Below are positions 38,676 to 53,284 of a DNA stretch of 64,000 nt, piece after piece; the first letter of the stretch is position 1; each line of letters starts with the position of its first letter. This DNA is from Candidatus Fraserbacteria bacterium. Lineage in GTDB: Bacteria; Bipolaricaulota; Bipolaricaulia; RBG-16-55-9; JAJCYT01. The notes beneath the pieces are model-generated. The model did no database searches, was not told where the DNA came from, and was given only the letters and a program-made list of their open reading frames with translations. The translations under genes were made by a program, and so were the position numbers. Where the stretch lies: positions 195,762 through 259,761 of the forward strand of contig JAJCYT010000018.1 in assembly GCA_029262795.1 (NCBI GenBank), in the 5' to 3' direction.

Positions 38676-41600
38676 ATGAACAGACAAGATACCGATCATA
38701 CATTTTTTACTAACGATAAAAATCAGACACTTCTAGACAGATTTAAATCAACATTAATAGACACAGAGTTTTTTGATATGCTCGTTGGCTATTTTAGATC
38801 TAGTGGATTTCATCAACTTCATGAAAGTATTGGCTCTATTTCAAAAACGCGAATACTTGTTGGCTTAAGCATTGACGCCAAAACTTACTATGCAATTAAT
38901 ACAACTGGAAAACAACCCATGCTTGAATTTGAGTCGCATAGATATGCCAAGTCGGAATTTCAAAGAAAACTCATAGATGAAGTTGAAAACTCTGAAGATT
39001 CGGATGAAAACCTGGAGCTAGGCCTAAAAAAATTCATTGAGTTTCTGCAAACAAATTGCCCCGATTACAACAATGATCTTGAAAAGGATGGAAATGGGAA
39101 GAAACTTGAAATTCGTGTTTTTCCCTCACGAAACATTCATGCCAAAGTATATATTGGCAGGTTTTTTCCTGATGATAGAGATTATGGCTTCGTCATAACA
39201 GGATCAAGCAACTTTTCTTATCGAGGTCTAGTTGCCAACCGTGAATTTAATGTGGAGCTTCGCCAAAGGCAGGATGTGCAATATGCTCTAGATCAGTTTG
39301 AAGAACTTTGGACACAAGCTGTTGATGTTTCTGAAGATTTTGTTGAAACAACCAAGAATAAAACATGGCTTAACGATACAATTTCTCCATACGAACTCTA
39401 CTTGAAATTAATTTACGAATATATGCAGGAAGATATTAATCTTAAGGATGATATGGAGATTTTTCTTCCAGACAGATTTTTACTACTAAAGTACCAACAG
39501 CAGGCTGTTCAACAAGCATTAAAAAAGCTTAACGAGCATAAAGGTGTCTTCCTTGCAGATGTCGTAGGGCTTGGTAAAACTTTTATCACCGCGCAACTGT
39601 TGCAGCAAATCAGAGGTAGAATACTAGTTATTTGCCCCCCCACATTAAAGGGATATTGGGAAGAAAGCCTACACGATTTTCGTGTTCCTGCACGGGTCGA
39701 ATCTCTAGGGAAACTTGAAAAGGTTATTAACTTTGGTTTGAATCGCTTTGATTATATAGTTGTCGATGAGGCTCATCGATTTCGTAATGAAGCAACCCGT
39801 TCATATGCTGATCTACTTGATATTTGTCGAGATAAGAAAGTTATTCTTGTGACTGCAACACCTATTAACAATAAAATTGATGATTTATTTTCTCAACTCA
39901 AGCTTTTTCAGGTACCTAAAAATTCTACTATTCCAGGAATTCCTAACCTGGAAAGGTTTTTTGCATCCTTACGTAAGCGTTTTAAGGGGATTGATCGTAC
40001 AGATCCAAATTATAAGCTCATTACAAAAGAAGTTTCACATGAAATTCGTGAGCGTATTTTAAAACATGTGATGGTTAGAAGAACTCGCACTGACGTTTTG
40101 ACCTATTTTAAGGAAGACCTCATTAGCCAAAACCTTTTCTTCCCTGAATTTCAAAACCCTCGACGGATTATTTACACATTTGAAAATAAACTAGAGAAAA
40201 CCTTCAATCAAACAATCAACTTGCTCCATGAGTTTCGATATGCCAGATATATCCCTCTTCTCTATTATGCTGGTAGTAAACGTCTTTCAGAGTTTGAACT
40301 GCAACAGCAACGCAATGTTGGAGGCTTCATGAAAGGGATTTTGATTAAGCGGCTAGAAAGCAGTTTCCATGCATTCAGAAAAAGTGTTGGCCGTTTCATT
40401 GAATCTTATGAACAATTTATTGGAATGCTATCCTCTGGAACAGTTTACATTAGCAAAAATGTTGATGTGTACGACTTGATTGACAGTGATGATATTGAAA
40501 CTCTCGAAAGACTCGTTGAAGAAGAAAAAGTACAGAAATACTCTTCAAAAGATTTTCGTGAAGGGTTCATTAAGGACTTGGAGTACGATCTTGAAACTCT
40601 CAAAAAGGTTGAGTTGCTTTGGCATGACGTTGAGCAAGACCCCAAAATCGATTCTTTTGTTAATCAGCTTGTTAGCGATCCTACTTTAAAAAATAGTCGG
40701 CTTGTTATTTTTACTGAATCAAAAGAAACGGGTGATTACCTATTTGATCAACTTAATCAAAAGTTTGCTGGGAAAGTTATATTTTTCAGTAGCTTAGGAG
40801 GTCGAGTTGGGAAAGTACCTGTTACTCATAACCCAACAACTGCTCGAGAGTTGATACAAAGCGCTTTTGATCCGAATCAGAGAAAAACAAATGAAGATTT
40901 GAGAATTCTCATTTCTACTGACATTCTTTCAGAGGGGATTAACCTACATCAGGCAAATGTACTCATAAACTATGACTTACCTTGGAATCCAACTCGTGTC
41001 TTACAAAGAGCTGGACGCATCAATAGACTTGGCACAAAGCATCCTGAAATTTTTATTTACAACTTTTTTCCAACAAGTCATGCTGATACCCATTTAGGCC
41101 TTGAAGCTAACATCACCCATAAGATTCAAATGTTCCATGACATTCTTGGTGAAGATGCAAAGTACCTTTCTGATGGTGAAGAAATTGGTAGTCAAGAGTT
41201 ATTTGATAGCTTAAATAAAAAGCAAACATACACTGGAGAAGATGATGAAGGGGATTCTGAATTAATGTACCTGGAGATGATGAGGAAACTCCGAGATGAA
41301 AACCCAAAATTATTTGAGAGAATAAAAAGATTACCCAAAAAGGCTCGCTCTGGCCGTAAGGCACAAAATCTTAAGCTTGATCAACTTGTAACTTTTTTTC
41401 GCGTAGGATCTTTAAAAAAGTTTTATCTTAATGAGGGTGAACAAAGCTCTGAAATTACTTTTTTTGATGCCGCCAATTTACTCGCTTGTTCTCCAGATAC
41501 TCCTAGACATCAGATACCGCCAAACTATTATCATTTGCTAAACACGAATAAACAAAGGTTTGCAGAAGATATCTTTCAAGATGATACTCAAGTTGGAAAC

Positions 41601-41918
41601 AGAGGAGGTCAGTCTAATATTGGGTATATTGAAAAGCGTTTAAAAGACAGATCTTTTCGAAATTATCCTAAGTTTACGGATTCAGATGAAGAATTTATTT
41701 ATGGTGTAATCAGAATGATATCACAAGGGCTTATGGCGAAAAAAATTGCTCAAGCTATCAAAAAAGATCTTGAAAAAACTCTCGACCCTCTCGACATGCT
41801 GTCAATTTTATACAAACATATTCGTACTGTAGATGTAAGAAAAGAACAGGCCGATAATAAAAATGTAAAGCGTGAGATCATTCTTTCGAGTTATCAAATA
41901 GCAGATCAAAGCGATTAA
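38676..41918 (+). CDS. PLD-family (HKD) nuclease fused to SNF2/DEAD-like SF2 helicase
   Basis: HKD motif HAKVYIGRFFPDDRDYGFVITGSSNFS; helicase motifs VVGLGKTF (I), DEAHRFRN (II), QRAGRINRLG (VI). Confidence 0.8.
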   Translation: MNRQDTDHTFFTNDKNQTLLDRFKSTLIDTEFFDMLVGYFRSSGFHQLHESIGSISKTRILVGLSIDAKTYYAINTTGKQPMLEFESHRYAKSEFQRKLIDEVENSEDSDENLELGLKKFIEFLQTNCPDYNNDLEKDGNGKKLEIRVFPSRNIHAKVYIGRFFPDDRDYGFVITGSSNFSYRGLVANREFNVELRQRQDVQYALDQFEELWTQAVDVSEDFVETTKNKTWLNDTISPYELYLKLIYEYMQEDINLKDDMEIFLPDRFLLLKYQQQAVQQALKKLNEHKGVFLADVVGLGKTFITAQLLQQIRGRILVICPPTLKGYWEESLHDFRVPARVESLGKLEKVINFGLNRFDYIVVDEAHRFRNEATRSYADLLDICRDKKVILVTATPINNKIDDLFSQLKLFQVPKNSTIPGIPNLERFFASLRKRFKGIDRTDPNYKLITKEVSHEIRERILKHVMVRRTRTDVLTYFKEDLISQNLFFPEFQNPRRIIYTFENKLEKTFNQTINLLHEFRYARYIPLLYYAGSKRLSEFELQQQRNVGGFMKGILIKRLESSFHAFRKSVGRFIESYEQFIGMLSSGTVYISKNVDVYDLIDSDDIETLERLVEEEKVQKYSSKDFREGFIKDLEYDLETLKKVELLWHDVEQDPKIDSFVNQLVSDPTLKNSRLVIFTESKETGDYLFDQLNQKFAGKVIFFSSLGGRVGKVPVTHNPTTARELIQSAFDPNQRKTNEDLRILISTDILSEGINLHQANVLINYDLPWNPTRVLQRAGRINRLGTKHPEIFIYNFFPTSHADTHLGLEANITHKIQMFHDILGEDAKYLSDGEEIGSQELFDSLNKKQTYTGEDDEGDSELMYLEMMRKLRDENPKLFERIKRLPKKARSGRKAQNLKLDQLVTFFRVGSLKKFYLNEGEQSSEITFFDAANLLACSPDTPRHQIPPNYYHLLNTNKQRFAEDIFQDDTQVGNRGGQSNIGYIEKRLKDRSFRNYPKFTDSDEEFIYGVIRMISQGLMAKKIAQAIKKDLEKTLDPLDMLSILYKHIRTVDVRKEQADNKNVKREIILSSYQIADQSD

Positions 41919-41922
41919 ACTC

Positions 41923-44900
41923 ATGGATAAGAATCAAGCAAAACAAACTATCAAAAACATTTTCACACAAGCATTTGATCATGAGCAATATAAGCAGTTT
42001 TTACGTTATTTACTCAATCATTTTGAGGAACGAAATCAACATTATACTGGCAATTACATTACAGCCGCTTATAAAGATCACATCCATCAATACTGGCGCA
42101 TTGGTAAGTACGTCGACCCCAATGGGGAGGAATTAGATCTATTAGTTGTAGAAGTTAAAGATCGAAACAAACTAGAACGTGCACGCTCATCATTACGAAG
42201 TTTTGCTGTTAATCGACTTAAGCAGTTTGAGAAAGAGGCTTCCTTAATAGCCTTTTATGCCAGGGATGATGAAGGCGCTGATTGGCGTTTTTCGTTTGTA
42301 AAAATTGAACATGAAGCTTATCAGGACCCCGTAGGTAAAGTTAAACTTCGTCAAGAATTAACTCCAGCCAGACGATACTCATATTTAGTAGGAGTACATG
42401 AGAATAGTCATACCGCTAGCCAGCAATTGTTACCTATTTTAGAGATGAATTATGCTGATCCGCGTATTGATGATATAGAGTCGGCCTTTAGTATTGAAAA
42501 GGTCACTGATGAATTTTTTGATCAATACAAGCAATTATTTCAAAAATTGGCTGAACATCTCAAACATCAACATTTTTTCCAGGGCGACACCGAAACAGAA
42601 ACAAGTGGAAAAATAAGTCAATTTGCAAAAAAGTTACTGGGGCAAATTGTTTTTCTTTATTTCTTACAAAAGAAAGGATGGTTGGGTGGATCTAAAATAG
42701 GAAGCTGGGGTGAGGGTTCGAAGCGCTTTATGCGTGACCAATTTGACCAAGTGAGTCAAGAAGACAAAAATTATTACAACGATTTCTTGCAGTATCTATT
42801 CTATGAAGCTTTAGCCAATGATCGAAAAAAGCAGTCTGATCCAGGCTATTATTCTCGGTTTGATTGCAGAGTTCCCTTCCTCAATGGGGGCCTTTTTGAA
42901 GCCCCCTATGATTGGAAGAAATCAACCATTGATATTCCAAATACTATATTCCATAACAACGAAAAGAATAAAGCCGGAGATAGTGGTACCGGAATTCTTG
43001 ATGTGTTTGATAGATACAATTTTACCATTAAGGAAGATGAGCCTTTAGAAAAAGAAGTCGCCGTCGATCCTGAAATGCTCGGAAAAGTTTTTGAGAACAT
43101 GCTTGAAATTACCGAGCGCAAAAACAAAGGGGCTTTTTATACCCCACGTGAAATTGTTCACTATATGTGCCAAGAAAGCCTTATCCACTATCTGGATAAC
43201 CAAATGAACAGTTATAGTTCTGTCTATCAAGACTTAGATACAGATCAAACCAGCTTATTTGGTAATGAAGCTCGAAAAGGGCAACTGAAGCTTACACAAG
43301 AACATCAAGGAATTCGTGTTCCACGAGAAGATTTGGAAACCTTGATTCGTATGGGGCATTTTGCCTTAGAGAATGATCAACGTGTATTAAGCACAGGTAA
43401 AGAGACTCGAGATTATAAATTTCAATTGCCAGAATCAGTCCGTAAAGAAGCAGAAGCAATTGACGAAAGTCTGGCAAAAATTAAAGTTTGTGACCCAGCT
43501 ATTGGGTCAGGAGCTTTTCTTGTAGGTCTTTTGCAGGAGATCATTAATACAAGGCTCGCTCTTGCGCCTCATGTCCAAAAAAACGGCATTGGCTCTTATG
43601 AGCTTAAGCGACATGCAATTGCTGAAAGTCTTTATGGGGTTGACACTGATGCTTCAGCAATTGATATTGCTAGGCTTCGGCTTTGGTTATCCCTTATTGT
43701 GGATGAAAAAGATTATGATGAAATAGAAGCTCTACCAAATCTGGATTATAAAATTACTCAAGGAGATTCGTTGGTGGGGTTCCCCGATAACTGGAAAAGC
43801 CTATCTTTTGAACGAATTGAACTGCTTAAGGATCAATTCTTTAAAGAAACAAATTCAAATAAAAAAGTTAAATTAAAAAATGAAATTGATAATGAAATAA
43901 AAAAAAGACTAAAGGGTTCAGAAAAGATTTTTGGTTCAAAGGTAAGTTTTGACTTTCGCCTTTTCTTTTCAGAGGTTTGGCATGAAAATGGTGGCTTTGA
44001 TGTGGTCATTGGTAATCCACCTTATGTTCAGATTCAAAAGTTTAGTGGGCAATCAGTTCAACAAGATTGGGAAAAACAAAACTATGAAACTTTTGCTAAG
44101 ACTGGTGATATTTATTGTTTATTTTACGAAAAAGGATATCGCCTTCTAAGAAACAACGGAGTTCTTGTATACATAACATCAAACAAATGGATGAGAGCGA
44201 ATTATGGTGTTAAGCTGAGAACCTTTTTTCTAAAGCGTATTACGATCCATCAGCTCATTGATTTTGGCGATTCTCCAATCTTCTCTGAAGCTACAACTTA
44301 TACCAACATCATTCTTTTTGAGAAGGTAAAAATGAATGCTAGTCCTAAAGTTTGGGACTTGACCTCTAATTACCTTGAGGAAACTTCATTAACACGATTG
44401 CTTGATGAAAACAAAAAGGGAATTTCACTTTTTAATGAAAAGAGCTTTGTTATTACATCACCAAAGCTGGCTGCGATAAAGAACCAAATTGAAGAAATGG
44501 GATTACCTCTTGAAAGCTGGAAAATTGATATTTATCGAGGAATTTTGACTGGATTTAATGAAGCATTTATTATCGATAGTGAAAGAAAAGATGAACTAAT
44601 CAAGCAAGATCCTAAAAATGCTGAAATCATTAAACCAATCCTTCGTGGCCGTGACATTAAAAAGTATCAAATGGAGTTTGCTGGTTTATGGTTAATTTCA
44701 ACCTTTCCAGCATTGAATTTAAGAATTGAAGACTATCCAGCTATTCATGATTATTTAATGTCTTTTGGTAGACGACTACACCAAACTAGTGAAGTAATTG
44801 GAAAAGATGATAAAGGTAACGTGATTAAAAGTCGTAAAAAAACTGATAATGAATGGTTTGAGACTCAGGACCAAATTGCTTATTACAAAGAATTTGAAAA

Positions 44901-45483
44901 GGACAAGATTATTTATGCCGAAATTGTCTTTGATTCGGCATTTTACTATGATACATCAAGAATTTATGCAGAAGCCACGGCATTTATTATCACTGGCGAA
45001 AACACAAAGTATCTTACGGCCATGTTAAACTCACAGCTTCTTACATTTGCATTTCGTGCCTTTTATGCAGGTGGTGACTTAAGAGGCAATACGTTTCGAT
45101 ACAAAAAGGCATTTCTACAAAACTTACCTGTCACCAAAGCGGATACACATGAAAGGTTGTTGTTGGAAACGCTTGTTGGTTATGTACAAATTACTAAAGC
45201 TGCTGACCAAAAACTCCAAGCAACTTATTTTGAGCAAATAATTGATGGTCTAGTTTATGAACTCTATTTTACTGATGAGATTCAAGCTGCTGGAAAAGAA
45301 ATTTACTCTCAACTAGGGAGGTTAATTCCAGTTGAGAGCATTAAACAAGAAGAAGAAAAACTGGCGGTTATTCAGAAAGAATTTGATAGACTTTATGATC
45401 CTTATCATCCAGTTCGTAATAACATCGAAACTTTAGATAGCATCGAAGTTGTTAAAACTATACGAAATTCTTTGAAAAAATGA
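41923..45483 (+). CDS. large gamma-class N6-adenine DNA methyltransferase of type IIG/IIL (MmeI-/PglX-like) architecture
   Basis: Motif I VCDPAIGSGAFLVGL, motif IV GNPPYVQ; long C-terminal TRD-like region; N-terminal DLLVVEVKD resembles a PD-(D/E)xK core; starts 5 nt after upstream gene. Confidence 0.8.
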   Translation: MDKNQAKQTIKNIFTQAFDHEQYKQFLRYLLNHFEERNQHYTGNYITAAYKDHIHQYWRIGKYVDPNGEELDLLVVEVKDRNKLERARSSLRSFAVNRLKQFEKEASLIAFYARDDEGADWRFSFVKIEHEAYQDPVGKVKLRQELTPARRYSYLVGVHENSHTASQQLLPILEMNYADPRIDDIESAFSIEKVTDEFFDQYKQLFQKLAEHLKHQHFFQGDTETETSGKISQFAKKLLGQIVFLYFLQKKGWLGGSKIGSWGEGSKRFMRDQFDQVSQEDKNYYNDFLQYLFYEALANDRKKQSDPGYYSRFDCRVPFLNGGLFEAPYDWKKSTIDIPNTIFHNNEKNKAGDSGTGILDVFDRYNFTIKEDEPLEKEVAVDPEMLGKVFENMLEITERKNKGAFYTPREIVHYMCQESLIHYLDNQMNSYSSVYQDLDTDQTSLFGNEARKGQLKLTQEHQGIRVPREDLETLIRMGHFALENDQRVLSTGKETRDYKFQLPESVRKEAEAIDESLAKIKVCDPAIGSGAFLVGLLQEIINTRLALAPHVQKNGIGSYELKRHAIAESLYGVDTDASAIDIARLRLWLSLIVDEKDYDEIEALPNLDYKITQGDSLVGFPDNWKSLSFERIELLKDQFFKETNSNKKVKLKNEIDNEIKKRLKGSEKIFGSKVSFDFRLFFSEVWHENGGFDVVIGNPPYVQIQKFSGQSVQQDWEKQNYETFAKTGDIYCLFYEKGYRLLRNNGVLVYITSNKWMRANYGVKLRTFFLKRITIHQLIDFGDSPIFSEATTYTNIILFEKVKMNASPKVWDLTSNYLEETSLTRLLDENKKGISLFNEKSFVITSPKLAAIKNQIEEMGLPLESWKIDIYRGILTGFNEAFIIDSERKDELIKQDPKNAEIIKPILRGRDIKKYQMEFAGLWLISTFPALNLRIEDYPAIHDYLMSFGRRLHQTSEVIGKDDKGNVIKSRKKTDNEWFETQDQIAYYKEFEKDKIIYAEIVFDSAFYYDTSRIYAEATAFIITGENTKYLTAMLNSQLLTFAFRAFYAGGDLRGNTFRYKKAFLQNLPVTKADTHERLLLETLVGYVQITKAADQKLQATYFEQIIDGLVYELYFTDEIQAAGKEIYSQLGRLIPVESIKQEEEKLAVIQKEFDRLYDPYHPVRNNIETLDSIEVVKTIRNSLKK

Positions 45484-46946
45484 AAATCAAGACCATAGAA
45501 ATCAACAACTATAAGGCGTTTCTTGGCAAACATCCAATTAATGTAAATGAAAAAAACCTTTTTATTTATGGTGAAAATGGAAGTGGTAAAAGCTCCCTTT
45601 ATTTCGCATTAAAAGATTTTTTCCAGTCCTCAATGGAAGACATTGTTCTTGAGGACTTAGAAAACATATTTGTAGAAGAAAAGAATCAAGGCAAAACATC
45701 TATCGAAGTTTCATTTAAGCCCAATCCTCAAGGAGATCAAGAAGTAAAAGCCTATTTGCTTAATAATGAGCAAAATGCAACACGCGAGGAAACTGATACC
45801 AGCATCCGTGATGGGAACAAACTGAAAAGCTTTCTTACTTATAAACACCTATTAGATATTCACAACATAAAAAAGGATGAGTCAATAAATCTATTCAATT
45901 TATTGGTCAAGGGAGTATTAAAGCACTTTAAATTTTCTCTAACCAAAGGAAAAGAACTAGGTGAGTTATGGGCAGAAGTGGAGAGTAGTATTAGCCAAAA
46001 AACTGGCCGTAGTTATCCGATCAATAAAAAGAAACCAGACGTAGATGCTGCTATAAAGCTATTCAATGAAGCCTTTAAAGAATTGTTCAATGAAGAGAGC
46101 CCAGAGTATATACTTAAACATACAAAACCTATTTTAAACAAATTCAATCATAATATTGATTTAGTGCTATATTTTCCTCATGTACGGCCTAACTCAGATT
46201 ATACGAGTCTTCTTGATGTAGAAGTGAGTGTTGAACTCACTTATGCCGGTAAGAAGATTAAGAAACCACATTTATTTCTCAACGAAGCGAGGCTTTCAGC
46301 TATTGCAATTTCGATCTACCTTGGAATGATCAAACGCCACATTCAACTTATTCCATGCAAAATACTGTTTTTAGACGATATCTTTATCGGCCTTGATATT
46401 GCAAACCGTTTACCTTTATTAGAAATTTTGGAATCAGAGTTTCAGGATTATCAAATCTTTATTACCACTTATGATAAACCCTGGTTCGAATATGTACGCG
46501 GTATGCTTGAAGGCAAATCAAATTGGAAAACAATGGAATTCTATGCACAACATTGTCAAGAAGGCATAGAGATTCCCAAGATTTTTGATGGTGAAAATCT
46601 AATTAAAAAAGCTAATAAACATTTTCAACAGTCTGATTATAAGGCAGCCGCAGTCTATATTAGATCAGCATTTGAAAAGATACTACAGAAATACTGTGAA
46701 AAACACAGAATATCAATCGCATTTAAGTCTGACCCGAGAAATTATACTTCAGAAGATTTTTGGATAGCCATTAAAAGCAAATTGTCACCTCAGACTCAAA
46801 AAGAAATAGAAGCCTATCGTAATCTAGTACTAAACCCCTTTAGTCACTATAACACGAGGAAGCATGAAATAAAGACTGAATTAGAAAAAGCCATTAAAGC
46901 GGTCACGAATTTAAAAAAGAATCTGAATGATCTTGACTCGAAATAA
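45480..46946 (+). CDS. RecF/SMC-like (AAA_15/AAA_23-type) ATPase
   Basis: Walker A GENGSGKSS, Walker B/D-loop ILFLDDIFIGLD; ATGA overlap with upstream MTase gene. Confidence 0.7.
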   Translation: MKIKTIEINNYKAFLGKHPINVNEKNLFIYGENGSGKSSLYFALKDFFQSSMEDIVLEDLENIFVEEKNQGKTSIEVSFKPNPQGDQEVKAYLLNNEQNATREETDTSIRDGNKLKSFLTYKHLLDIHNIKKDESINLFNLLVKGVLKHFKFSLTKGKELGELWAEVESSISQKTGRSYPINKKKPDVDAAIKLFNEAFKELFNEESPEYILKHTKPILNKFNHNIDLVLYFPHVRPNSDYTSLLDVEVSVELTYAGKKIKKPHLFLNEARLSAIAISIYLGMIKRHIQLIPCKILFLDDIFIGLDIANRLPLLEILESEFQDYQIFITTYDKPWFEYVRGMLEGKSNWKTMEFYAQHCQEGIEIPKIFDGENLIKKANKHFQQSDYKAAAVYIRSAFEKILQKYCEKHRISIAFKSDPRNYTSEDFWIAIKSKLSPQTQKEIEAYRNLVLNPFSHYNTRKHEIKTELEKAIKAVTNLKKNLNDLDSK

Positions 46947-47000
46947 AATAGTTCTCGCGAGATATTGAGAACGCTAAATAAGACAGACTAGAGGGAGATT

Positions 47001-49112
47001 ATGGATAACCAACAACCAAAGCCTGATTCAAAGAGCTATTCGGATCTCATAACAGAAATACAAAAGGGCATATTAAAAATCCCAAAATTTCAACGTGATT
47101 TTGTATGGAGCATAGACAAAACAGCTGAACTTTTAGACAGCATTCTTAAAGGTTATCCAATTGGGACATTTATCCTATGGCAAACAGATGAAAGAATGAA
47201 TGACATCAAAAACATTGGAGATCAAAAAATCCCAGATACCCCCGAGGGGACTAAAGTTCAATATGTGCTGGATGGTCAGCAAAGAATTACTTCTCTGTAT
47301 GCAGCTTATCTTGGAGCAAAAATTCAAAAATCAGGCGAAAAGAAAATCACAGATTACAGTGAGATTTATATTGATCTGGAATCAGACATCAACAATGATG
47401 ATGAACATGTGATCACATCGGAAAAACCTCAAGGGCCATCGATTTCTTTAAGTGATGTATTAAATTTCTCAGAAAAGTATCAAGAAATCGAGGAAAAGCA
47501 CTTTGAACATCGAATGAAGATTAATGAGTATTCAAGGGCATTCATTACTTATGATTTTTCTACTATTTTATTACGAAAAGAAAGTATTAATTCTGCCATT
47601 GAAGTTTTTACCCGCATAAATACCGGAGGGCAAACTCTGACTTTGTTTGAAATTATGTCAGCCAAGACATATGACGAAGGTCAGAGTTTTGATATGCAGG
47701 AAAAATGGTCAGGGTTCATGAAAAAGCTGACTGATAAGAATTATGAGGGTATATCTAGTTCAATCATTCTTTCTTTACTTTCGTTGATCATAAGTAAAAC
47801 CAAGGAATGCAAGCGAAAAACAATTTTGAAACTTGATAAACAGGATATCATTTCAACTTGGGATGATGGTATCTCGGCATTAGAACACAGCATTGATTAT
47901 TTTCGAACCTCATTTGGAATTCCTGTTTCTCAGCTTTTGCCTTATGATTCTTTGCTAGTACCGTTCGCATATTTTTTCTACTGGACTAAGGATATGCCCA
48001 ATGCCGACCAGCGAAAATATTTAGAAGAATTTTTTTGGCGTGTTTCTCTCTCGTACAGATATTCTAGTGCCACTGAATCCAGCCTAGCACAGGATGTTAG
48101 ACGGATTGATTTGATCTTGAATAACGAACGTCCAAAATATGATGACATAAAAGTATCCTATGACGTCGAAGAGCTTATTAACACTGAGTTTGGTGCTGGA
48201 AACAGTTATTGTAAAGCTATTTTATGTTTACTGGCCTACCAAGAACCAAAAGATTTCCAAGATAACCGAAAAGTTATCTTGGATAATTCATGGCTGAAAG
48301 CCGCCAATAGTAAAAACTATCACCATTTCTTTCCAAAAGCTTATTTGAAAAAGCAAAAAGTAATTAATGCTAATAGCTTGATAAATATCACATTTGTCAG
48401 TGAACATCTCAACAAGCGAAAGATAAGAGCCAGCGCCCCTTCAGTGTATATTGCCAGGTTTGCTGAAGAAAATGAAAAAATCTCCCAAGCCATGGCCTCA
48501 CATTTGATCGACGTGGAAGGTTTTGGGATTGAAAGCGATGATTACGATATCTTCCTAAAGAAACGAGCCGAACGAATCTCAAATGAATTAAGAAGACGAT
48601 TAGAGCTTTCAAAGCCAGATAAACCAAGCTCTGAAATACATGAGCTTATTTCAAATGGTGAAAGTGACCATGTTGAATTCAAATCTACACTCCGCTTTGA
48701 CCTAAATAAAGGCCAAGTCAACAAAAAATTAGAATATGTGGTAGCCAAGACGGTAGCAGCATTTATGAATACAGAAGGAGGCTGTTTGCTAATTGGTGTT
48801 GATGATGATCAAACCATTTTAGGTTTGGATAATGATATCCAAACGCTTTCTAAGAAAAATCTAGATGGATTTGAACTTCAATTAATTGAGGTTATTAAAA
48901 AGTATATTGGAACTGAAGTCAGTTCACACATTAAGATCTCCTTTAATGAAGTCGAAGGCTCCCATATTTGCAAGATAAATATTTCGAAAAGTAGTACGCC
49001 TATCTTCACAAAATTTGAAGGTCAAGAAGATTTCTTTGTAAGAGTTGGATGTTCCTCACAACCACTCAGTCGAGAAAAACAAAGTCAATATGAAAAACAA
49101 CGATGGAGATAA
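47001..49112 (+). CDS. DUF262/DUF1524 (GmrSD-like type IV restriction-type nuclease) fused to C-terminal AlbA_2 (Schlafen-like) domain
   Basis: DUF262 motifs FQRDFVW and VLDGQQRITSL; DUF1524/HNH-like region HHFFPKAY...ITFVSEHLNKRK; C-terminal SDHVEFKST...FMNTEGGCLLIGVDDD. Confidence 0.75.
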   Translation: MDNQQPKPDSKSYSDLITEIQKGILKIPKFQRDFVWSIDKTAELLDSILKGYPIGTFILWQTDERMNDIKNIGDQKIPDTPEGTKVQYVLDGQQRITSLYAAYLGAKIQKSGEKKITDYSEIYIDLESDINNDDEHVITSEKPQGPSISLSDVLNFSEKYQEIEEKHFEHRMKINEYSRAFITYDFSTILLRKESINSAIEVFTRINTGGQTLTLFEIMSAKTYDEGQSFDMQEKWSGFMKKLTDKNYEGISSSIILSLLSLIISKTKECKRKTILKLDKQDIISTWDDGISALEHSIDYFRTSFGIPVSQLLPYDSLLVPFAYFFYWTKDMPNADQRKYLEEFFWRVSLSYRYSSATESSLAQDVRRIDLILNNERPKYDDIKVSYDVEELINTEFGAGNSYCKAILCLLAYQEPKDFQDNRKVILDNSWLKAANSKNYHHFFPKAYLKKQKVINANSLINITFVSEHLNKRKIRASAPSVYIARFAEENEKISQAMASHLIDVEGFGIESDDYDIFLKKRAERISNELRRRLELSKPDKPSSEIHELISNGESDHVEFKSTLRFDLNKGQVNKKLEYVVAKTVAAFMNTEGGCLLIGVDDDQTILGLDNDIQTLSKKNLDGFELQLIEVIKKYIGTEVSSHIKISFNEVEGSHICKINISKSSTPIFTKFEGQEDFFVRVGCSSQPLSREKQSQYEKQRWR

Positions 49113-49414: not shown

Positions 49415-50395
49415 ATGATGAGTTCCGTAGTTTTAGAGAGGAAAAATATGACAAGAAAATCTGATTCTAGTCCTACTAAGGAACTTATAACTTCATTAGA
49501 AGATCTTGTGGAAATTGGTACTGTACCTGCTTCAGCTTTACAAAAAGATATGGGTTTGACTTTTGATGATCTTGTGCAATTGGCAGTTGAAGCATCTGTG
49601 AATAGTGCTTCACTTGCGTTCCCCAAATTGAGTTTATTGGATATGCTTGCTCTTAGTTGTTTTTTTGAAATATGCGATCAAATTGAAGTTTCTCTCGAGA
49701 GACTAGAATCAGTTTTAAATTGGATGACTGGTAACAAACCTACTCATTTAGAAAAAATAATAGAAATGCAATCTATTTTTGAACTTCACTGTTCGGGGCT
49801 AAGCATACCTAAATCACCTGTAGAGGCATTGGAGCTATTACAAAAAGCGAATGATGAATTTGTCGGCAAAAGCCTCCTTAGAATAATTAGGGCTAGATGG
49901 CCAATCTTCTCTCTGCTTTTAAATCTCTCTTTAGGGCATAAAATGTTTTTCAAGTCCGATCTAAAAGAAGATCATCAGTTCTTAAGTGAATCTAACTTGG
50001 CAGAATTGGCCCAGTTTGGGATATTACTTGGTTCAGATAGGAAGTTAGAATATCTTCTTCCTCTAAACGAAATTATGAATGAAGTTTTAGAAGCTGTTGA
50101 GTTAAAAACATTTGAAATAACGAATAGTACAAGAAACTTTGATCCTTATACTCATTCAGTCAGCAAGATAGTGGCTGAGCAACTCTTAAAGAAAGATTAC
50201 GATTCGATTCTAATAGAATTTAATTCAGATAACGAAATTCGTTTGGTATTCAATAAAAATATAGATTTAAGTAAGTCTATAAAGCTTGGTAAGATAATTG
50301 ATGATATTGATTTTGGCCATTTAGACCTCTTTGTCAACCATGGCAAAATAACTCAAATAAGATCGAAAGAATCAATTAAATTCCAGCAACGCTGA
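49415..50395 (+). CDS. hypothetical protein (possible start at ATG 49448)
   Basis: Long ORF with island-typical AT-rich codon usage; no motif recognised. Confidence 0.4.
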   Translation: MMSSVVLERKNMTRKSDSSPTKELITSLEDLVEIGTVPASALQKDMGLTFDDLVQLAVEASVNSASLAFPKLSLLDMLALSCFFEICDQIEVSLERLESVLNWMTGNKPTHLEKIIEMQSIFELHCSGLSIPKSPVEALELLQKANDEFVGKSLLRIIRARWPIFSLLLNLSLGHKMFFKSDLKEDHQFLSESNLAELAQFGILLGSDRKLEYLLPLNEIMNEVLEAVELKTFEITNSTRNFDPYTHSVSKIVAEQLLKKDYDSILIEFNSDNEIRLVFNKNIDLSKSIKLGKIIDDIDFGHLDLFVNHGKITQIRSKESIKFQQR

Positions 50396-50494: not shown

Positions 50495-50677
50495 ATGGAT
50501 CCTCACGTAGATAAGTATTTGCTTGATTCCGCACAAAAGCTTTGGCAACCTGAATATCAAGATAAACTCAGTAATGAAGACGTAGAAGAAATTGTCGATA
50601 ATATTTCGGATTTTTTCGAAGTATTGATCGAATGGGGCAATACTTCCAACGAGCCTACAGAAAGTAGGCTCGAATGA
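50495..50677 (+). CDS. small acidic hypothetical protein (possible recombination directionality/accessory factor)
   Basis: 60 aa; ATGA stop/start overlap with downstream Rep-like gene. Confidence 0.25.
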   Translation: MDPHVDKYLLDSAQKLWQPEYQDKLSNEDVEEIVDNISDFFEVLIEWGNTSNEPTESRLE

Positions 50678-51783
50678 ATAAATCAACCAGTGTTAAAAAT
50701 AGTGGAACTAAAAGCCCTCTAGTTACACACCCCCCGCAAATTCCAAAAAATGTAACCAGCAAGACCTTATTAATGGGCTTAGATAGCTTGTATCTAGGCT
50801 GTTTTGGTCAACTGCATCGAAGATTTCAAAGGCTAAATGATTCAAAAATAAAAATTTCAGATGTTTTATTTACAGCCACAGATATTAGATTTGGGCCATA
50901 TAAGTATGTGTTTGATAGTGGTAGAATGACAATTGGATTCAATAATAAATACAAATATGCATCTTCACCTGAAGTCTATATTCGACTAAAATCTCAATTC
51001 ATTTTGTCAAAAGGTTTAGCGAATGCGTATGAAAGCGCAATAAAGATAGCCGATAAACTGTTAGTTTCACGAACTAAACGAGATACAGTGCTTCGCGTAG
51101 ATTTGTTTATGGATATTCTTTGGGATAAAGCGTTCAAAGCTGCTGATGTAGATAAATTTGTTTCTAGAGCAAGACAAAAGAACTCACATTCTTCTAATAA
51201 TGAAATAACTGGCTTCAGTTTTGGAAAATCTCAAATTAGAGCCAGAGTTTATAATAAAACCCTAGAAAAGAATAAAGAAAAATCACATTTACTTTATCAG
51301 GCTTGGAATATTCCAAAAAAATCTAAGTCAAATGTATGGAGATTAGAATTTCAATTACGAGGAGTGGCATTGCGCAAGTTTGATGTTCATGAGTTTTATG
51401 ACCTGATTTACGAAGCAAATAGAATTTGGAATTACTGCTGCCAAAAATGGCTTTCCATGAGGAAACTGAATAATAAAAGAACAACTCGTAGATCTCTCAC
51501 AGCTTTTTGGAAGACTGTTGTTGATTCAAACTTCGAATTTAATCTTGAGATCGAAGATGAAGAAAGATTTGAACAATTAACCAAGCAATATGCAGAAGGA
51601 AATTTGAATGAGGTTACAGATGATAGTCATATTGTTAATACTATTTCAGGCATGGTAAAGAACCATGCTATTTCACATGGCTATGCTACAAATGAGGAAG
51701 CGCTTGACAACTTGTTACCTAAAATAGAAAAGAAGTTAAGCATCATAAGAAAAAACAAAAAAAGAGGTGAATTAAAGCCATGA
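50674..51783 (+). CDS. Rep_trans-like rolling-circle replication initiator (putative)
   Basis: IRARVYNKTLE and WRLEFQLRG resemble the conserved vRiYdK / RiE motifs of Rep_trans initiators from ICE/IME and phage. Confidence 0.55.
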   Translation: MNKSTSVKNSGTKSPLVTHPPQIPKNVTSKTLLMGLDSLYLGCFGQLHRRFQRLNDSKIKISDVLFTATDIRFGPYKYVFDSGRMTIGFNNKYKYASSPEVYIRLKSQFILSKGLANAYESAIKIADKLLVSRTKRDTVLRVDLFMDILWDKAFKAADVDKFVSRARQKNSHSSNNEITGFSFGKSQIRARVYNKTLEKNKEKSHLLYQAWNIPKKSKSNVWRLEFQLRGVALRKFDVHEFYDLIYEANRIWNYCCQKWLSMRKLNNKRTTRRSLTAFWKTVVDSNFEFNLEIEDEERFEQLTKQYAEGNLNEVTDDSHIVNTISGMVKNHAISHGYATNEEALDNLLPKIEKKLSIIRKNKKRGELKP

Positions 51784-53243
51784 AAGTGCTTGCGTATGCA
51801 CGTGTTTCAACTCAAGATCAGGCTAAGGAAGGATACAGTGTTCCTGCTCAAATAAGAGCAATCAGAGAATCTGCGAAAAGAAATAACCTTCAAATTGTGC
51901 GTGAATTTACTGAGGCCGAATCTGCAAAAGCCGTTGGCCGAAAGAGCTTTCACAAAATGGTCAAATTTATCAAAGCAAATCCAGGAAATGTTGATGGGAT
52001 TATAGCACATAAGGTAGATCGTTTATCTAGGAATTTCAAAGACCTTCTAACACTCAAGGAACTAAATATGAAACTAATATTTGTGTTAGAAGAATTTCCC
52101 GACAATGCCATGGGCAGATTTATCCTTGATATGCGTGTTGCTCAATCAGCTTTTTATAGTGGCAATCTTTCAGAGGATGTAATTAAGGGAATGACTGAAA
52201 AGGCAAAACAAGGACTATTCCCTTCCCGTGCAGCACTAGGATACATCAATGTGACCAGAAACGGGAAAAGAATCATTGAACCTGATCCCGAAATTGCTCC
52301 GTTAATAAAGACTGCTTTCAAGTTATATTCAACTGGCAGATATTCACTTAATCAGATTAGGAAATTATGTGGGGAACAAGGCCTAGTTTATCGCCAAAGT
52401 AGAAAACCTATCAGCAAAAGCACTTTGGATAGTATGCTCAAAAGGCCTTTATATTATGGTGGTTTTTACTGGAGTGGAAATCTCTATCGTGGTACTCATG
52501 ATCCCATAATTTCCAAAACACTCTTTGATAAAGTTCAACAAGTGCGCAAAGATCGCTCAAAACCAAAAAGAAAGTCATGGCGTTTCGCTTTTTCAGGTCT
52601 TCTTGTGTGTGGTTATTGTGGATGTGCAATTACCGCAGAAATGAAGAAAGGCAAGTACACTTATTATCATTGCACTGGATATAAAGGTAAGTGTGATCAA
52701 AAATGGCTGAGAGAAGAAGTTTTGTCCGAAATTTTGGGGGAAATGCTTTTAGAAATACGCTTTGGTCAATCTAAGATTGATTGGATTGAAGATGTGTTGA
52801 TTTCCAAGCACTCTATTGATTTGCAGCAACAAGAAACTTCAATGCGAGCTTTAAAGTCACAAGCTAATAGAGTCCAAAATCGTTTAGAAAAGATATATAT
52901 CGATAAATTAGATGGCGTAGTTTCTGAAGAAACTTGGGTATCGAAATCAAAAGAATGGGAGAAAGAAGAACAAGAAATACTAACTCGCATTAAAGCAATG
53001 GAAAATATTGGCCCAAATTTTATAGACAAGGGTATCCAGATTTTAGAACTGGCGAATAACGCCTACAACTCGTATTTAAATCAGAATATTCATGAAAGGA
53101 GGAGATTACTTGATTGTGTACTTTCGAACTGCGAAATGTTAGGTGAAAAGCTAGTGCCAAACTACAAAAAACCATTTGACATCCTAGCAAAATCGAGAAG
53201 TTGTACGGATTGGCTGGGAGAGAGGGATTCGAACCCCCACTAA
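51780..53243 (+). CDS. large serine recombinase (integrase)
   Basis: N-terminal resolvase catalytic domain MKVLAYARVSTQDQ (Ser nucleophile), recombinase domain, Cys-rich zinc ribbon CGYCGC...YYHC and coiled-coil; last ~11 codons overlap tRNA-Gln. Confidence 0.85.
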   Translation: MKVLAYARVSTQDQAKEGYSVPAQIRAIRESAKRNNLQIVREFTEAESAKAVGRKSFHKMVKFIKANPGNVDGIIAHKVDRLSRNFKDLLTLKELNMKLIFVLEEFPDNAMGRFILDMRVAQSAFYSGNLSEDVIKGMTEKAKQGLFPSRAALGYINVTRNGKRIIEPDPEIAPLIKTAFKLYSTGRYSLNQIRKLCGEQGLVYRQSRKPISKSTLDSMLKRPLYYGGFYWSGNLYRGTHDPIISKTLFDKVQQVRKDRSKPKRKSWRFAFSGLLVCGYCGCAITAEMKKGKYTYYHCTGYKGKCDQKWLREEVLSEILGEMLLEIRFGQSKIDWIEDVLISKHSIDLQQQETSMRALKSQANRVQNRLEKIYIDKLDGVVSEETWVSKSKEWEKEEQEILTRIKAMENIGPNFIDKGIQILELANNAYNSYLNQNIHERRRLLDCVLSNCEMLGEKLVPNYKKPFDILAKSRSCTDWLGERDSNPH

Positions 53244-53284
53244 CCGGGTCAGAGCCGGTCGTCCTACCATTAGACGATCTCCCA
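53211..53284 (-). tRNA. tRNA-Gln (anticodon CTG)
   Basis: Reverse complement TGGGAGATCGTCTAATGGTAGGACGACCGGCTCTGACCCGGTTAGTGGGGGTTCGAATCCCTCTCTCCCAGCCA folds as cloverleaf: 7-bp acceptor, GTTCGAATC T-loop, anticodon loop CU-CUG-AC, encoded CCA. Confidence 0.85.

What the first reader, a model, noticed from the sequence alone, without database searches (positions are those of the whole stretch)
38676..49112. Candidate undescribed four-gene defence operon: PLD-SNF2 helicase / MmeI-like N6A methyltransferase / RecF-like ATPase / GmrSD-AlbA_2
Four large genes are packed with 5-nt gap, 4-nt overlap and 55-nt gap. (1) HKD phospholipase-D nuclease fused to an SNF2/DEAH helicase. (2) ~1190-aa gamma-class adenine MTase with TRD. 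(3) Walker A/B SMC/RecF-type ATPase. (4) DUF262+DUF1524 type-IV-restriction-like nuclease with an extra AlbA_2 domain. The PLD+SNF2 and big adenine MTase echo DISARM (DrmC+DrmD, DrmMI), but the signature DrmA/DrmB (DUF1998) are absent. The MTase echoes BREX PglX, but PglZ/BrxC/BrxL are absent. The ATPase + His-Me-type nuclease pair echoes Septu/GmrSD-like modules. I read this as a novel composite defence system in which modification (gene 2) licenses self DNA while a PLD-helicase and an ATPase-nuclease pair attack unmodified or modified invaders. This is a hypothesis, not established.
Basis: partly seen in the sequence, partly recalled or inferred. Interest (0 to 1): 0.8.

Follow-up and report, generated by a model that had tools for sequence, protein, structure and literature searches.

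The report
Three-gene restriction-like defence system plus cargo
The first three genes form a widespread but apparently unnamed anti-phage unit (a cutter-motor, a DNA methylase and an ATPase), while the fourth gene is a separate, swappable nuclease that here rides on the same small mobile element.

Summary
All four ORFs exist at the stated coordinates with the stated domains. They are not one obligate four-gene system.

Genes 1-3 are a PLD/HKD-SNF2 helicase-nuclease, an Eco57I/PglX-type N6-adenine methyltransferase with a hypervariable TRD, and an SMC/RecF-like ABC ATPase with a DUF4145/HEPN-like tail. They are colinear in 45 of 50 loci that have enough flank, across more than 10 phyla. The five exceptions are decayed copies or copies that run off the fetched DNA.

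Gene 4 (GmrSD/BrxU-like DUF262 plus His-Me nuclease plus AlbA_2) never accompanies the triad elsewhere. Its 70%-identical homologues sit inside type I R-M operons instead. In other genomes the gene 2-gene 3 junction is an insertion hot spot for type IV-restriction-like cassettes: AlbA_2-HATPase, McrBC, DUF262-HNH and GmrSD. Gene 4 is therefore accessory cargo.

The block lies on a ~14.7 kb low-GC element with a large serine recombinase next to tRNA-Gln.

PADLOC calls gene 2 a type IIG enzyme and gene 4 a PDC-M55C/HEC-05-like protein. Genes 1 and 3 reach no family cut-off. DISARM, BREX, MANTIS/Gao_RL, Hma, MADS, Pbe and Septu each fail a defining feature.

Best reading: an ATP-dependent R-M-like system, mechanistically nearest to MANTIS, with a PrrC-like ABC-HEPN partner. 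It is a new variant of a known kind.

The parts
38676..41918 (+). Gene 1: N-terminal PLD/HKD nuclease domain with a single HKD motif (H155, K157, GSSN 176-179), fused to an SNF2-type SF2 motor (Walker A K301, DEAH 364-367, Helicase_C 670-786). Predicted ATP-dependent translocase-nuclease, the restriction effector.
   Evidence: Pfam hits. PADLOC C3a139 'HKD+Snf2' 1.5e-52 and DrmD 3.5e-42. NCBIfam phospholipD_antiphage 177 bits against a cut-off of 1100, and DrmD 164 against 610. Motifs conserved in 42 homologues. Colinear with genes 2-3 in 45 of 50 loci.
41923..45483 (+). Gene 2: large gamma-class N6-adenine DNA methyltransferase of the Eco57I/PglX/CamA type (DPAIGSG 524-530, NPPY 698-701). It has a hypervariable TRD (~800-1100) and a conserved N-terminal domain of unknown role (1-160). 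Predicted specificity and modification subunit.
   Evidence: Pfam hits. PADLOC REase_MTase_IIG PDLC03596 at 1036 bits, full length. PDB sequence hits to CamA, BseCI and TaqI. Foldseek top hit is BREX PglX 8c45, on a low-confidence model. TRD identity 20-35% against 45-90% elsewhere. TRD pairwise identity 23% and decoupled from the rest of the operon.
45480..46946 (+). Gene 3: SMC/Rad50/RecF-head-like ABC ATPase without a long coiled coil (Walker A 31-38, Walker B LFLDD 296-300). It carries a C-terminal DUF4145/HEPN-like helical domain (~365-488; invariant R395, E399, N452, H456). Its start overlaps the gene 2 stop (ATGA).
47001..49112 (+). Gene 4: GmrSD/BrxU-like type IV-restriction-type protein. 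It has DUF262 (DGQQR 91-95), a His-Me nuclease region (H441, H442, N471, K472) and a C-terminal AlbA_2/Schlafen-like domain (554-689). Independent accessory cargo, not part of the conserved core.
   Evidence: Pfam hits. PADLOC PDC-M55C 5e-64 and HEC-05 1.4e-35. BrxU 7p9k 3e-11. The family is widespread at 69-78% identity. Invariant motifs. Homologues embedded in type I R-M operons and other islands. Absent next to the triad elsewhere.
46951..46972 (+). Short hairpin (GTTCTC-N10-GAGAAC) in the 54-nt spacer between genes 3 and 4, followed by a GAGGGAG Shine-Dalgarno-like stretch. Possibly the seam between the core system and the cargo.
   Evidence: Read directly from the sequence. Not tested further.
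49415..50395 (+). 326-aa ORF of unknown function on the element. Not conserved with the triad.
   Evidence: No PADLOC, NCBIfam or PHROG hits; weak DUF2292 only. Absent from the 80 loci.
50674..51783 (+). 369-aa weak Rep_trans-like / phage 'endonuclease' family protein. Probable replication or excision function of the mobile element.
   Evidence: Pfam Rep_trans 4e-4, below cut-off. phrog_33635 4.8e-12.
51780..53243 (+). Large serine recombinase (Resolvase + Recombinase + Zn_ribbon_recom). Its last 33 nt overlap the 3' part of tRNA-Gln on the opposite strand. Integrase of the ~14.7 kb low-GC element.
   Evidence: Pfam hits. NCBIfam CcrB/XisF-like, below cut-off. phrog_95 integrase 4e-78. tRNA position. 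GC profile.
53211..53284 (-). tRNA-Gln(CTG), the right-hand border and probable integration target of the element.
   Evidence: ARAGORN. No second copy of its 3' end in the window.

Best explanation
The region is a small integrative element of ~14.7 kb and ~35% GC, with a serine recombinase next to tRNA-Gln. It carries two defence modules.

Module A is genes 1-3, a conserved three-component, ATP-dependent, methylation-based restriction-like system. Gene 2 reads a short DNA sequence through its exchangeable TRD and N6-methylates adenine to mark self DNA. On unmodified DNA, gene 2 together with gene 3 licenses gene 1. Gene 1 dimerises so that two half-sites form one PLD/HKD active centre. It uses its SNF2 motor to translocate and then cuts the DNA, as proposed for SauUSI and MANTIS MtsD.

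Gene 3 is an SMC/RecF-like ABC ATPase with a HEPN-like tail. It is the obligate third subunit. I take it to be an ATP-gated DNA-sensing checkpoint that controls methylation and/or nuclease activation, like MtsA in MANTIS or BrxC in BREX. It may also be a PrrC-like latent RNase that fires when the R-M part is blocked; I put that at about 40%.

Module B is gene 4, a free-standing GmrSD/BrxU-type enzyme that attacks phage DNA carrying modified bases. This covers phages that escape module A through hypermodification.

Shown here: gene content, motifs, conserved synteny, TRD hypervariability, and the independence of gene 4. Inferred: every biochemical activity, the complex between genes 1-3, and the role of gene 3.
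For: Synteny. 45 of 50 loci with at least 9 kb upstream of a gene 3 homologue carry gene 1 and gene 2 homologues on the same strand in the same order. They come from Desulfobacterota, Gammaproteobacteria, Chlorobiota, Chloroflexota, Cyanobacteriota, Planctomycetota, Acidobacteriota, Bacteroidota, Bacillota, Lentisphaerota, Ignavibacteriota and Patescibacteria.

Co-evolution. Pairwise identities of gene 1 and the non-TRD part of gene 2 correlate at r=0.96. Gene 1 against gene 3 gives r=0.61. The TRD is decoupled (r about 0.2) with mean identity 23%. This is the signature of an R-M specificity module.

Motifs. Catalytic motifs of all three proteins are conserved. Genes 2 and 3 share an ATGA overlap.

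Defence context. Same-strand type IV-restriction-like cassettes sit between genes 2 and 3 in about 45 loci: AlbA_2+HATPase_c_4 in 20, McrBC in 8, DUF262-HNH in 7, GmrSD in 7. Variable defence-type genes lie downstream: TOTE AEP-helicase, YhcG nuclease, HNH_2, a GHKL ATPase and a McrB-like ATPase. Embedding of this kind is a published hallmark of Hma, BREX, DISARM and R-M loci.

Gene 4 independence..

Mechanistic precedents. The MANTIS MtsD PLD-SF2 dimer with one active site, and ATPase-dependent methylation. PrrC/RloC ABC-HEPN proteins embedded in R-M operons.

Mobile element. GC drop, recombinase and tRNA.
Against: No experiment exists for any member. No methylome was checked.

Gene 2 matches a REBASE-derived 'type IIG' model over its full length. 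It has a conserved N-terminal domain with a D65...E77-x-K79-like string, so it might cut DNA itself. Against that, E77 is Q in 13 of 47 homologues and K79 is not invariant. Pfam finds no nuclease family there.

The HEPN-like tail of gene 3 lacks a canonical Rx4-6H motif. R447 is present in only about 17 of 24 sequences, while N452-x3-H456 is invariant. RNase activity is therefore uncertain.

In about half of the loci other genes separate genes 2 and 3, so translational coupling is not essential.

The gene 2 structure model is poor (pLDDT 64, pTM 0.38). No model of gene 1 was made, so its likeness to SauUSI and MtsD rests on domain architecture and sub-threshold HMM hits.
Confidence: 0.62

Rival explanations
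1. All four genes form one obligate composite system. Gene 2 licenses self DNA, while the PLD-helicase and an ATPase-nuclease pair (genes 3+4) jointly attack invaders.
For: Tight same-strand packing with a 54-nt spacer and no strong + strand terminator between genes 3 and 4. The gene 4 domain types (DUF262, AlbA_2) are the same kinds that are recurrently attached to the triad in other genomes.
Against: Gene 4 homologues are absent from all 80 triad loci. Gene 4 homologues at 70% identity sit in type I R-M operons or next to MmeI-type genes, with no gene 1-3 relatives. Gene 3 is never paired with a nuclease of the gene 4 type as a fixed neighbour. The slot is filled by at least five unrelated cassettes, or by nothing.
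Confidence: 0.05
2. Gene 2 is a self-sufficient type IIG restriction-modification enzyme with its own nuclease, MTase and TRD. Genes 1 and 3 are auxiliary or separate defence genes that merely co-travel with it.
For: Full-length 1036-bit match to PADLOC REase_MTase_IIG. Conserved N-terminal alpha/beta domain with a D...ExK-like string. Milman et al. describe relatives as 'Type II R-M enzyme homologous to Cj0031' with an adjacent PLD+SNF gene. Some homologues carry an extra Vsr/DUF559 endonuclease fusion (P0126 and P0182).
Against: Near-perfect co-evolution of gene 1 with the non-TRD part of gene 2 (r=0.96) and strict colinearity argue for a physical partnership. The putative ExK is not conserved: E77 is Q in 28% of homologues. 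There is no Pfam nuclease or MmeI_N hit. An HKD nuclease fused to a motor is the usual restriction subunit of ATP-dependent R-M-like systems.
Confidence: 0.13
3. PrrC-type reading of gene 3. Genes 1+2 are a complete two-subunit R-M system. Gene 3 is a latent ABC-HEPN RNase held inactive by that complex. It is released to cleave tRNA or mRNA, causing abortive infection, when a phage anti-restriction protein blocks genes 1 and 2.
For: The ABC head plus C-terminal HEPN-clan domain is the PrrC/RloC architecture, and PrrC sits inside a type Ic R-M operon. H456, N452, R395 and E399 are invariant, and an E399-x3-R403 motif is present in most homologues.
Against: The canonical Rx4-6H motif is absent or degenerate. 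Unlike PrrC, which accompanies only some type Ic systems, gene 3 is essentially obligatory. That fits a core subunit better than an optional guard. There is no AAA_13/PrrC family hit.
Confidence: 0.2

Closest known systems
MANTIS (= Gao_RL, 'type-2 BREX-related' system): MtsA DUF499 AAA+ ATPase, MtsB DUF3780, MtsC DUF1156 N6A MTase, MtsD PLD-SF2 helicase-nuclease
   Same: The logic matches: an adenine MTase gives the specificity, an N-terminal HKD/PLD nuclease is fused to an SF2/SNF2 motor as effector, and an extra ATPase is an obligate component. Gene 1 hits the NCBIfam and PADLOC models of the MtsD-type protein (3.8e-52 and 1.7e-31). The mechanism was described.
   Different: The ATPase is an SMC/RecF-like ABC protein with a HEPN-like tail, not a DUF499 AAA+ protein. 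The MTase is of the Eco57I/PglX type with a TaqI_C TRD, not DUF1156. There is no DUF3780. Gene 1 scores far below the family cut-off (177 against 1100 bits).
Class 1 DISARM (DrmA, DrmB, DrmD SNF2, DrmMI, optional DrmC PLD)
   Same: SNF2 helicase (DrmD model 3.5e-42), PLD nuclease and a large N6A MTase (DrmMI model 5e-34).
   Different: The defining DrmA (YprA helicase) and DrmB (DUF1998) are absent here. No conserved extra gene flanks the triad in 80 loci. PLD and SNF2 are fused. An ABC ATPase is present instead.
EcoprrI-PrrC (type Ic R-M with embedded ABC-HEPN anticodon nuclease) and RloC
   Same: An ABC ATPase with a C-terminal HEPN-clan domain is encoded inside an R-M-type operon.
   Different: The R-M part is an HKD-SNF2 protein plus a fused MTase-TRD, not HsdMSR. 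Gene 3 is obligatory rather than occasional. The Rx4-6H motif is not canonical. There is no sequence-family match to PrrC.
Type IIG/IIL R-M enzymes (Eco57I, MmeI, Cj0031) and BREX PglX
   Same: Gene 2 has the same MTase-TRD core, a variable TRD and a full-length PADLOC IIG hit. Its best structural match is PglX.
   Different: It is always partnered with a helicase-nuclease and an ABC ATPase. A nuclease domain is not demonstrable. No PglZ, BrxC or BrxL is present.
Hma / type-1 BREX-related system and its 'embedded' candidates (HEC, PDC)
   Same: Helicase + methylase + ATPase triad with a hot spot for embedded defence cassettes. Gene 4 resembles HEC-05/BrxU and PDC-M55C.
   Different: Hma uses an m5C MTase, a DUF499 ATPase and a helicase with a C-terminal PD-(D/E)xK nuclease. 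The HmaA hit is only local (3.7e-25).
GmrSD / BrxU / SspE family (for gene 4)
   Same: DUF262 with DGQQR and a His-Me nuclease region. BrxU PDB hit 3e-11. HEC-05 hit 1.4e-35.
   Different: An extra C-terminal AlbA_2 domain. Pfam GmrSD_C is not scored. The target modification is unknown.

Membership tests
DISARM | DrmA (YprA-type helicase) and DrmB (DUF1998) core genes | tested here: not met
   No such domains in the window genes around the locus. No conserved flanking gene beyond a sporadic XRE HTH in 80 triad loci.
DISARM | SNF2 DrmD, adenine MTase DrmMI and PLD DrmC | tested here: inconclusive
   Sub-threshold hits only. NCBIfam DrmD 164 bits against a cut-off of 610. PADLOC DrmD 3.5e-42 and DrmMI 5e-34.
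BREX | PglZ phosphatase and BrxC/PglY ATPase alongside PglX | tested here: not met
   Neither is present in the window. Gene 2 hits PglX models at 83 bits against a cut-off of 500.
MANTIS / Gao_RL / type-2 BR | DUF499 AAA+ ATPase, DUF3780 and DUF1156 MTase | tested here: not met
   Pfam finds none of these in genes 1-4 or their neighbours.
MANTIS / Gao_RL / type-2 BR | N-terminal HKD/PLD nuclease fused to a Swi2/Snf2 helicase | tested here: met
   PLDc_2 at 142-212 and SNF2/Helicase_C in gene 1. The family model NF042964 scores only 177 against 1100 bits, so this is a shared architecture, not membership.
Hma / type-1 BR | m5C methyltransferase HmaB and DUF499 ATPase HmaC | tested here: not met
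   Gene 2 is an N6A gamma-class MTase with NPPY. Gene 3 is an ABC ATPase. Definitions taken.
MADS | mad6, mad7 and mad8, which are mandatory in the published model | tested here: not met
   Only weak hits: mad3 1.9e-13 and mad2 1.9e-15. NCBIfam MAD2 19 bits against 720. No further genes are present. Definition taken.
Pbe (CxC-ABC / DndE system) | PbeC CxC-type ABC ATPase with a coiled coil, plus the PbeD DndE-like protein | tested here: not met
   Gene 3 hits PbeC only at residues 1-50 (2.5e-6). No DndE-like gene is present. Description taken.
Septu (PtuA/PtuB) | PtuA ATPase paired with a PtuB HNH nuclease as a conserved two-gene unit | tested here: not met
   PtuA hits cover only the N-terminal ~100 residues (3.6e-7). 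Gene 4 is not PtuB. Genes 3 and 4 do not co-occur elsewhere.
Type IIG restriction-modification enzyme (gene 2) | Fused MTase + TRD | tested here: met
   Eco57I, N6_Mtase and TaqI_C. PADLOC PDLC03596 at 1036 bits, full length.
Type IIG restriction-modification enzyme (gene 2) | An active endonuclease domain in the same polypeptide | tested here: inconclusive
   There is a conserved N-terminal alpha/beta domain, but no nuclease Pfam hit. The candidate ExK is variable: E77 is Q in 13 of 47, and K79 is present in 41 of 47.
GmrSD/BrxU type IV restriction (gene 4) | DUF262 NTPase-like domain with DGQQR, plus a DUF1524 His-Me nuclease | tested here: met
   GmrSD_N 2.7e-31. PDC-M55C 5e-64 over residues 4-532. 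Invariant DGQQR and HH...N...NK. Pfam GmrSD_C itself is not scored.
PrrC/RloC-type ABC-HEPN proteins (gene 3) | Rad50/SMC-like ABC ATPase followed by a C-terminal HEPN domain | tested here: met
PrrC/RloC-type ABC-HEPN proteins (gene 3) | Conserved Rx4-6H RNase motif | tested here: not met
   Only N452-x3-H456 is invariant. R447 lies 8 residues upstream of H456 and is missing in 7 of 24 sequences.
PrrC/RloC-type ABC-HEPN proteins (gene 3) | Anticodon nuclease activity | not testable with these tools
   Requires biochemistry.

The most novel reading that the evidence does not exclude
Genes 1-3 define a widespread, so far unnamed class of methylation-based immunity. In it an SMC/RecF-like ABC ATPase with a HEPN-like tail is the obligate third subunit of an HKD-SNF2 / PglX-like R-M machine. 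That subunit either makes methylation and cleavage ATP-gated through a DNA clamp, or hard-wires an RNase suicide arm into every copy of the system. The gene 2-gene 3 junction serves as a dedicated docking site for type IV restriction cargo.
Probability: 0.35. Interest if true: 0.7.

Novelty: new variant of a known kind. Interest (0 to 1): 0.55.

Why it matters
If the triad works as one machine, it adds a fourth solution to the same problem alongside BREX, DISARM and MANTIS. All of these are methylation-based systems that need an extra ATPase. Here that ATPase is an SMC/RecF-type ABC protein, which makes the open question of why these systems need ATPases testable in a compact three-protein system.

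The family is large: more than 3200 clusters at 90% identity and 500 clusters at 50% identity. It spans more than 10 phyla, yet current annotation reduces it to a 'type IIG enzyme' plus two unlabelled genes.

The gene 2-gene 3 insertion hot spot is also a ready 'guilt-by-embedding' site for finding new type IV-like effectors.

Tried and rejected
- DISARM, BREX, MANTIS/Gao_RL, Hma, MADS, Pbe and Septu. Each was checked against its defining genes and rejected.
- Genes 3+4 as an ATPase-nuclease pair. Rejected by synteny.
- An active PD-(D/E)xK nuclease in the gene 2 N-terminus. Left unresolved and leaning negative. The full-length AF2 model was too poor (pTM 0.38) for a domain-level fold search. 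Foldseek recovered only the MTase/TRD relatives and PglX.
- PDB sequence search with the gene 3 profile. No hit.
- Plasmid collection. Only a truncated remnant on a Nostoc plasmid.
- IMG/VR viral contigs. No gene 3 relative.
- att repeats of the island. None found, as expected for a serine recombinase.
- Sigma-70 promoter scan. Fewer hits than in shuffles, so uninformative, and unsuitable if the host is Bacteroidota.
- Literature. No paper naming this triad was found. Krishnan et al. 2020 (NAR 48:10045, the ABC ATPase conflict systems paper) is the most likely place for a prior description, and it could not be read.
- The PADLOC label 'C3a139'. It is only a CRISPR type III accessory cluster name for an HKD+Snf2 protein.

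Full report
**Observation**

I read the junctions directly:
- Gene 1 ends in TAA, followed by 4 nt and the gene 2 ATG.
- Genes 2 and 3 share an ATGA overlap.
- Gene 3 ends in TAA, followed by 54 nt and the gene 4 ATG. This spacer holds a small hairpin and a GAGGGAG ribosome-binding-like stretch.

- Gene 1: PLDc_2, SNF2-rel_dom and Helicase_C.
- Gene 2: Eco57I, N6_Mtase, TaqI_C and MmeI_Mtase.
- Gene 3: SMC_N and AAA_15.
- Gene 4: GmrSD_N and SLFN_AlbA_2.

Pfam does not score GmrSD_C (DUF1524) in gene 4. However, the PADLOC model PDC-M55C covers residues 4-532, and an HH...P...N...NK His-Me-type motif is invariant in 25 homologues.

**Surroundings**

The block lies in a sharp GC trough of about 35%, against about 50% in the flanks, running from ~38.5 kb to ~53.2 kb. 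Downstream of gene 4 come:
- an unknown 326-aa ORF;
- a weak Rep_trans-like ORF;
- a 487-aa large serine recombinase whose last 33 nt overlap tRNA-Gln(CTG) on the other strand.

Upstream is a 3533-aa beta-propeller/LamG surface protein with weak, sub-threshold T9SS-type C-terminal hits. This suggests, but does not prove, a Bacteroidota host. The defence genes are therefore cargo of a ~14.7 kb integrative element. No att direct repeats were found, as expected for a serine recombinase.

**Is the neighbourhood conserved?**

Gene 3 has more than 3200 homologues at 90% clustering, at 64-71% identity across very different phyla. It has 500 clusters at 50% identity with E<=1e-30.

I fetched 80 genome loci around gene 3 homologues with 10 kb flanks and searched them with all seven island proteins. 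Among the 50 loci with at least 9 kb upstream, 45 carry gene 1 and gene 2 homologues on the same strand and in the same order. The five exceptions are:
- three truncated gene 3 remnants;
- one locus where a 7.8 kb insert pushes gene 1 off the fetched DNA;
- one locus with only a gene 2 fragment.

Gene 4 and the element genes are not found next to the triad anywhere. The single exception is a weak 29% DUF262 hit in L005.

Pairwise identities show how the parts evolve:
- Gene 1 against the non-TRD part of gene 2: r=0.96.
- Gene 1 against gene 3: r=0.61.
- Gene 2 TRD (residues ~800-1090): decoupled (r about 0.2), with 23% mean identity.

Along gene 2, conservation falls to 20-35% in the TRD against 45-90% elsewhere. 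This pattern is typical of an exchangeable R-M specificity module.

**The variable slot**

In about 45 loci a gap of 0.7-7.8 kb separates genes 2 and 3. It is filled with same-strand cassettes:
- AlbA_2 + HATPase_c_4 proteins: 20 loci.
- McrB + McrC: 8 loci.
- DUF262 + HNH: 7 loci.
- GmrSD_N + GmrSD_C: 7 loci.
- Zeta-toxin-like kinases: 3 loci.

A few of these cassette families occur directly after gene 3 instead (L072, L077), as gene 4 does here. Otherwise nothing downstream of gene 3 is conserved. What does sit there is varied and defence-like: a TOTE AEP-helicase, a YhcG/DUF1016 nuclease, HNH_2, a GHKL ATPase and a McrB-like ATPase.

Embedding of this kind has been described for Hma, BREX, DISARM and type I R-M loci and was used to discover the HEC and PDC candidates. 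Gene 4's best PADLOC hits are exactly such candidates: PDC-M55C and HEC-05, the latter being BrxU-like.

**Gene 4 is independent**

Its ~707-aa family (DUF262 + nuclease + AlbA_2) is widespread at 69-78% identity. In Kangiella and Halomonas it sits between hsdR and hsdM of a type I system, next to Kiwa. Elsewhere it lies in an island with an MmeI-type gene, an SMC-like ATPase and an HNH protein. No gene 1-3 relatives are present in any of these places. It is a self-contained type IV-restriction-type module that lodges in or beside methylation-based systems.

**What the three core proteins are**

*Gene 1.* It has a single HKD motif (H155, K157, GSSN 176-179) followed by a complete SNF2 motor (K301, DEAH 364-367), all conserved. 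Its best library hits are all well below family cut-offs:
- 'C3a139, HKD+Snf2';
- DrmD;
- the MANTIS/Gao_RL PLD-helicase.

'C3a139' is merely a cluster name from a survey of genes near type III CRISPR loci.

*Gene 2.* It is a gamma-class N6A MTase (DPAIGSG, NPPY) with a TaqI_C-type TRD. Sequence relatives with solved structures are CamA, BseCI and TaqI. On a low-confidence model the best full-length structural match is BREX PglX. PADLOC's REBASE-derived type IIG model matches it end to end at 1036 bits.

Whether gene 2 has its own nuclease is unresolved:
- The conserved N-terminal alpha/beta domain contains D65...E77-x-K79.
- But E77 is Q in 13 of 47 homologues, and K79 is not invariant.
- No nuclease family is detected there.

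- R395, E399, N452 and H456 are invariant.
- The canonical Rx4-6H motif is not kept.
- Most homologues have E399-x3-R403.

An ABC head followed by HEPN is the architecture of PrrC and RloC, and PrrC is embedded in a type Ic R-M operon.

**Mechanism (inferred)**

The best-supported model is an ATP-dependent R-M-like system.
- Gene 2 gives sequence specificity and self-marking by m6A.
- Gene 1 is the translocating nuclease. It probably acts as a dimer that assembles one PLD active site, as in SauUSI and the recently solved MANTIS MtsD.
- Gene 3 is an obligate ATP-dependent partner.

For gene 3 I favour a checkpoint or loader role analogous to MtsA or BrxC, because it is essentially always present and co-evolves with the other two. 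A PrrC-like latent RNase role remains a serious rival at about 0.2 as an exclusive model. Gene 4 adds an orthogonal arm against base-modified phage DNA.

**Comparison with known systems**

- DISARM lacks its defining DrmA and DrmB here.
- BREX lacks PglZ and BrxC.
- MANTIS/Gao_RL and Hma are built around DUF499 ATPases and other MTase families.
- MADS needs mad6-8.
- Pbe needs a CxC-ABC ATPase and a DndE-like protein.
- Septu needs PtuB.

None of these fits. Functionally the nearest is MANTIS, which shares the effector architecture, MTase-directed specificity and an additional ATPase. The nearest analogue for gene 3 is PrrC.

The pairing of a Cj0031-like type II R-M gene with an adjacent PLD+SNF gene has been noted in passing in a survey of programmed inversions. 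I found no paper that names or tests the three-gene unit. NCBIfam (June 2026) has no model that gene 1, 3 or 4 passes.

**Verdict**

There is a genuine, conserved, apparently unnamed defence system, but it has three genes, not four. Its parts are a new combination of known modules rather than a new principle. Gene 4 is interchangeable cargo.
- Novelty: new variant of a known kind.
- Interest: 0.55.

Noticed in passing
window 27840-38441 (+): A single 3533-aa ORF. It has an N-terminal alpha/beta-hydrolase-like region, CARDB, PD40/PQQ beta-propellers, InlB-B repeats and two LamG domains. Its C-terminus has weak Por_Secre_tail/CHU_C (T9SS sorting) hits. It is a giant secreted or surface protein immediately upstream of the island.
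   Followed up: partly
window 53211-53243: The last 11 codons of the serine recombinase ORF (...DWLGERDSNPH*) are encoded antisense to the 3' half of tRNA-Gln(CTG). The element apparently supplies or overlaps the tRNA 3' end. No duplicated tRNA fragment or att repeat was found.
   Followed up: partly
L003, L004, L010, L021, L028, L056 and 14 other loci, between the gene 2 and gene 3 homologues: The commonest embedded cassette is a ~488-aa AlbA_2 + HATPase_c_4 protein. The junction between the MTase and the ABC ATPase looks like a dedicated insertion hot spot that could be mined for new type IV-like effectors.
   Followed up: partly
P0126 and P0182 (gene 2 homologues of 1324 and 1421 aa): Some gene 2 homologues carry an additional DUF559/Vsr-like endonuclease plus an MTES_1575 domain fused to the MTase.
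   Followed up: no
L083 11127-14556; L084 11126-15401: In Kangiella and Halomonas the type I R-M operon that embeds the gene 4 homologue is followed directly by Kiwa (KwaA/KwaB). This forms a compact three-system island.
   Followed up: no
7 loci (e.g. L032 1399-1689), upstream of the gene 1 homologue: A 92-98-aa XRE/HTH_3 protein precedes the triad in a subset of loci and may be a C-protein-like regulator. It is absent in this window, where 234 nt of non-coding DNA precede gene 1.
   Followed up: no
L005 11574-13979: A TOTE conflict-system AEP primase-helicase fusion (PF22548, 1.3e-101) lies directly downstream of the triad in a Desulfobulbus MAG.
   Followed up: no
window 49415-50395 and 50495-50677: A 326-aa ORF and a 60-aa ORF on the element have no family hits in Pfam, PADLOC, NCBIfam or PHROGs.
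   Followed up: partly
L089 (Nostoc cf. commune plasmid pANSO36B 195530-197976): A conjugative plasmid carries only a TaqI_C-domain fragment plus a gene 3 homologue at 36% identity. This is apparently a decayed or minimal remnant of the triad.
   Followed up: no
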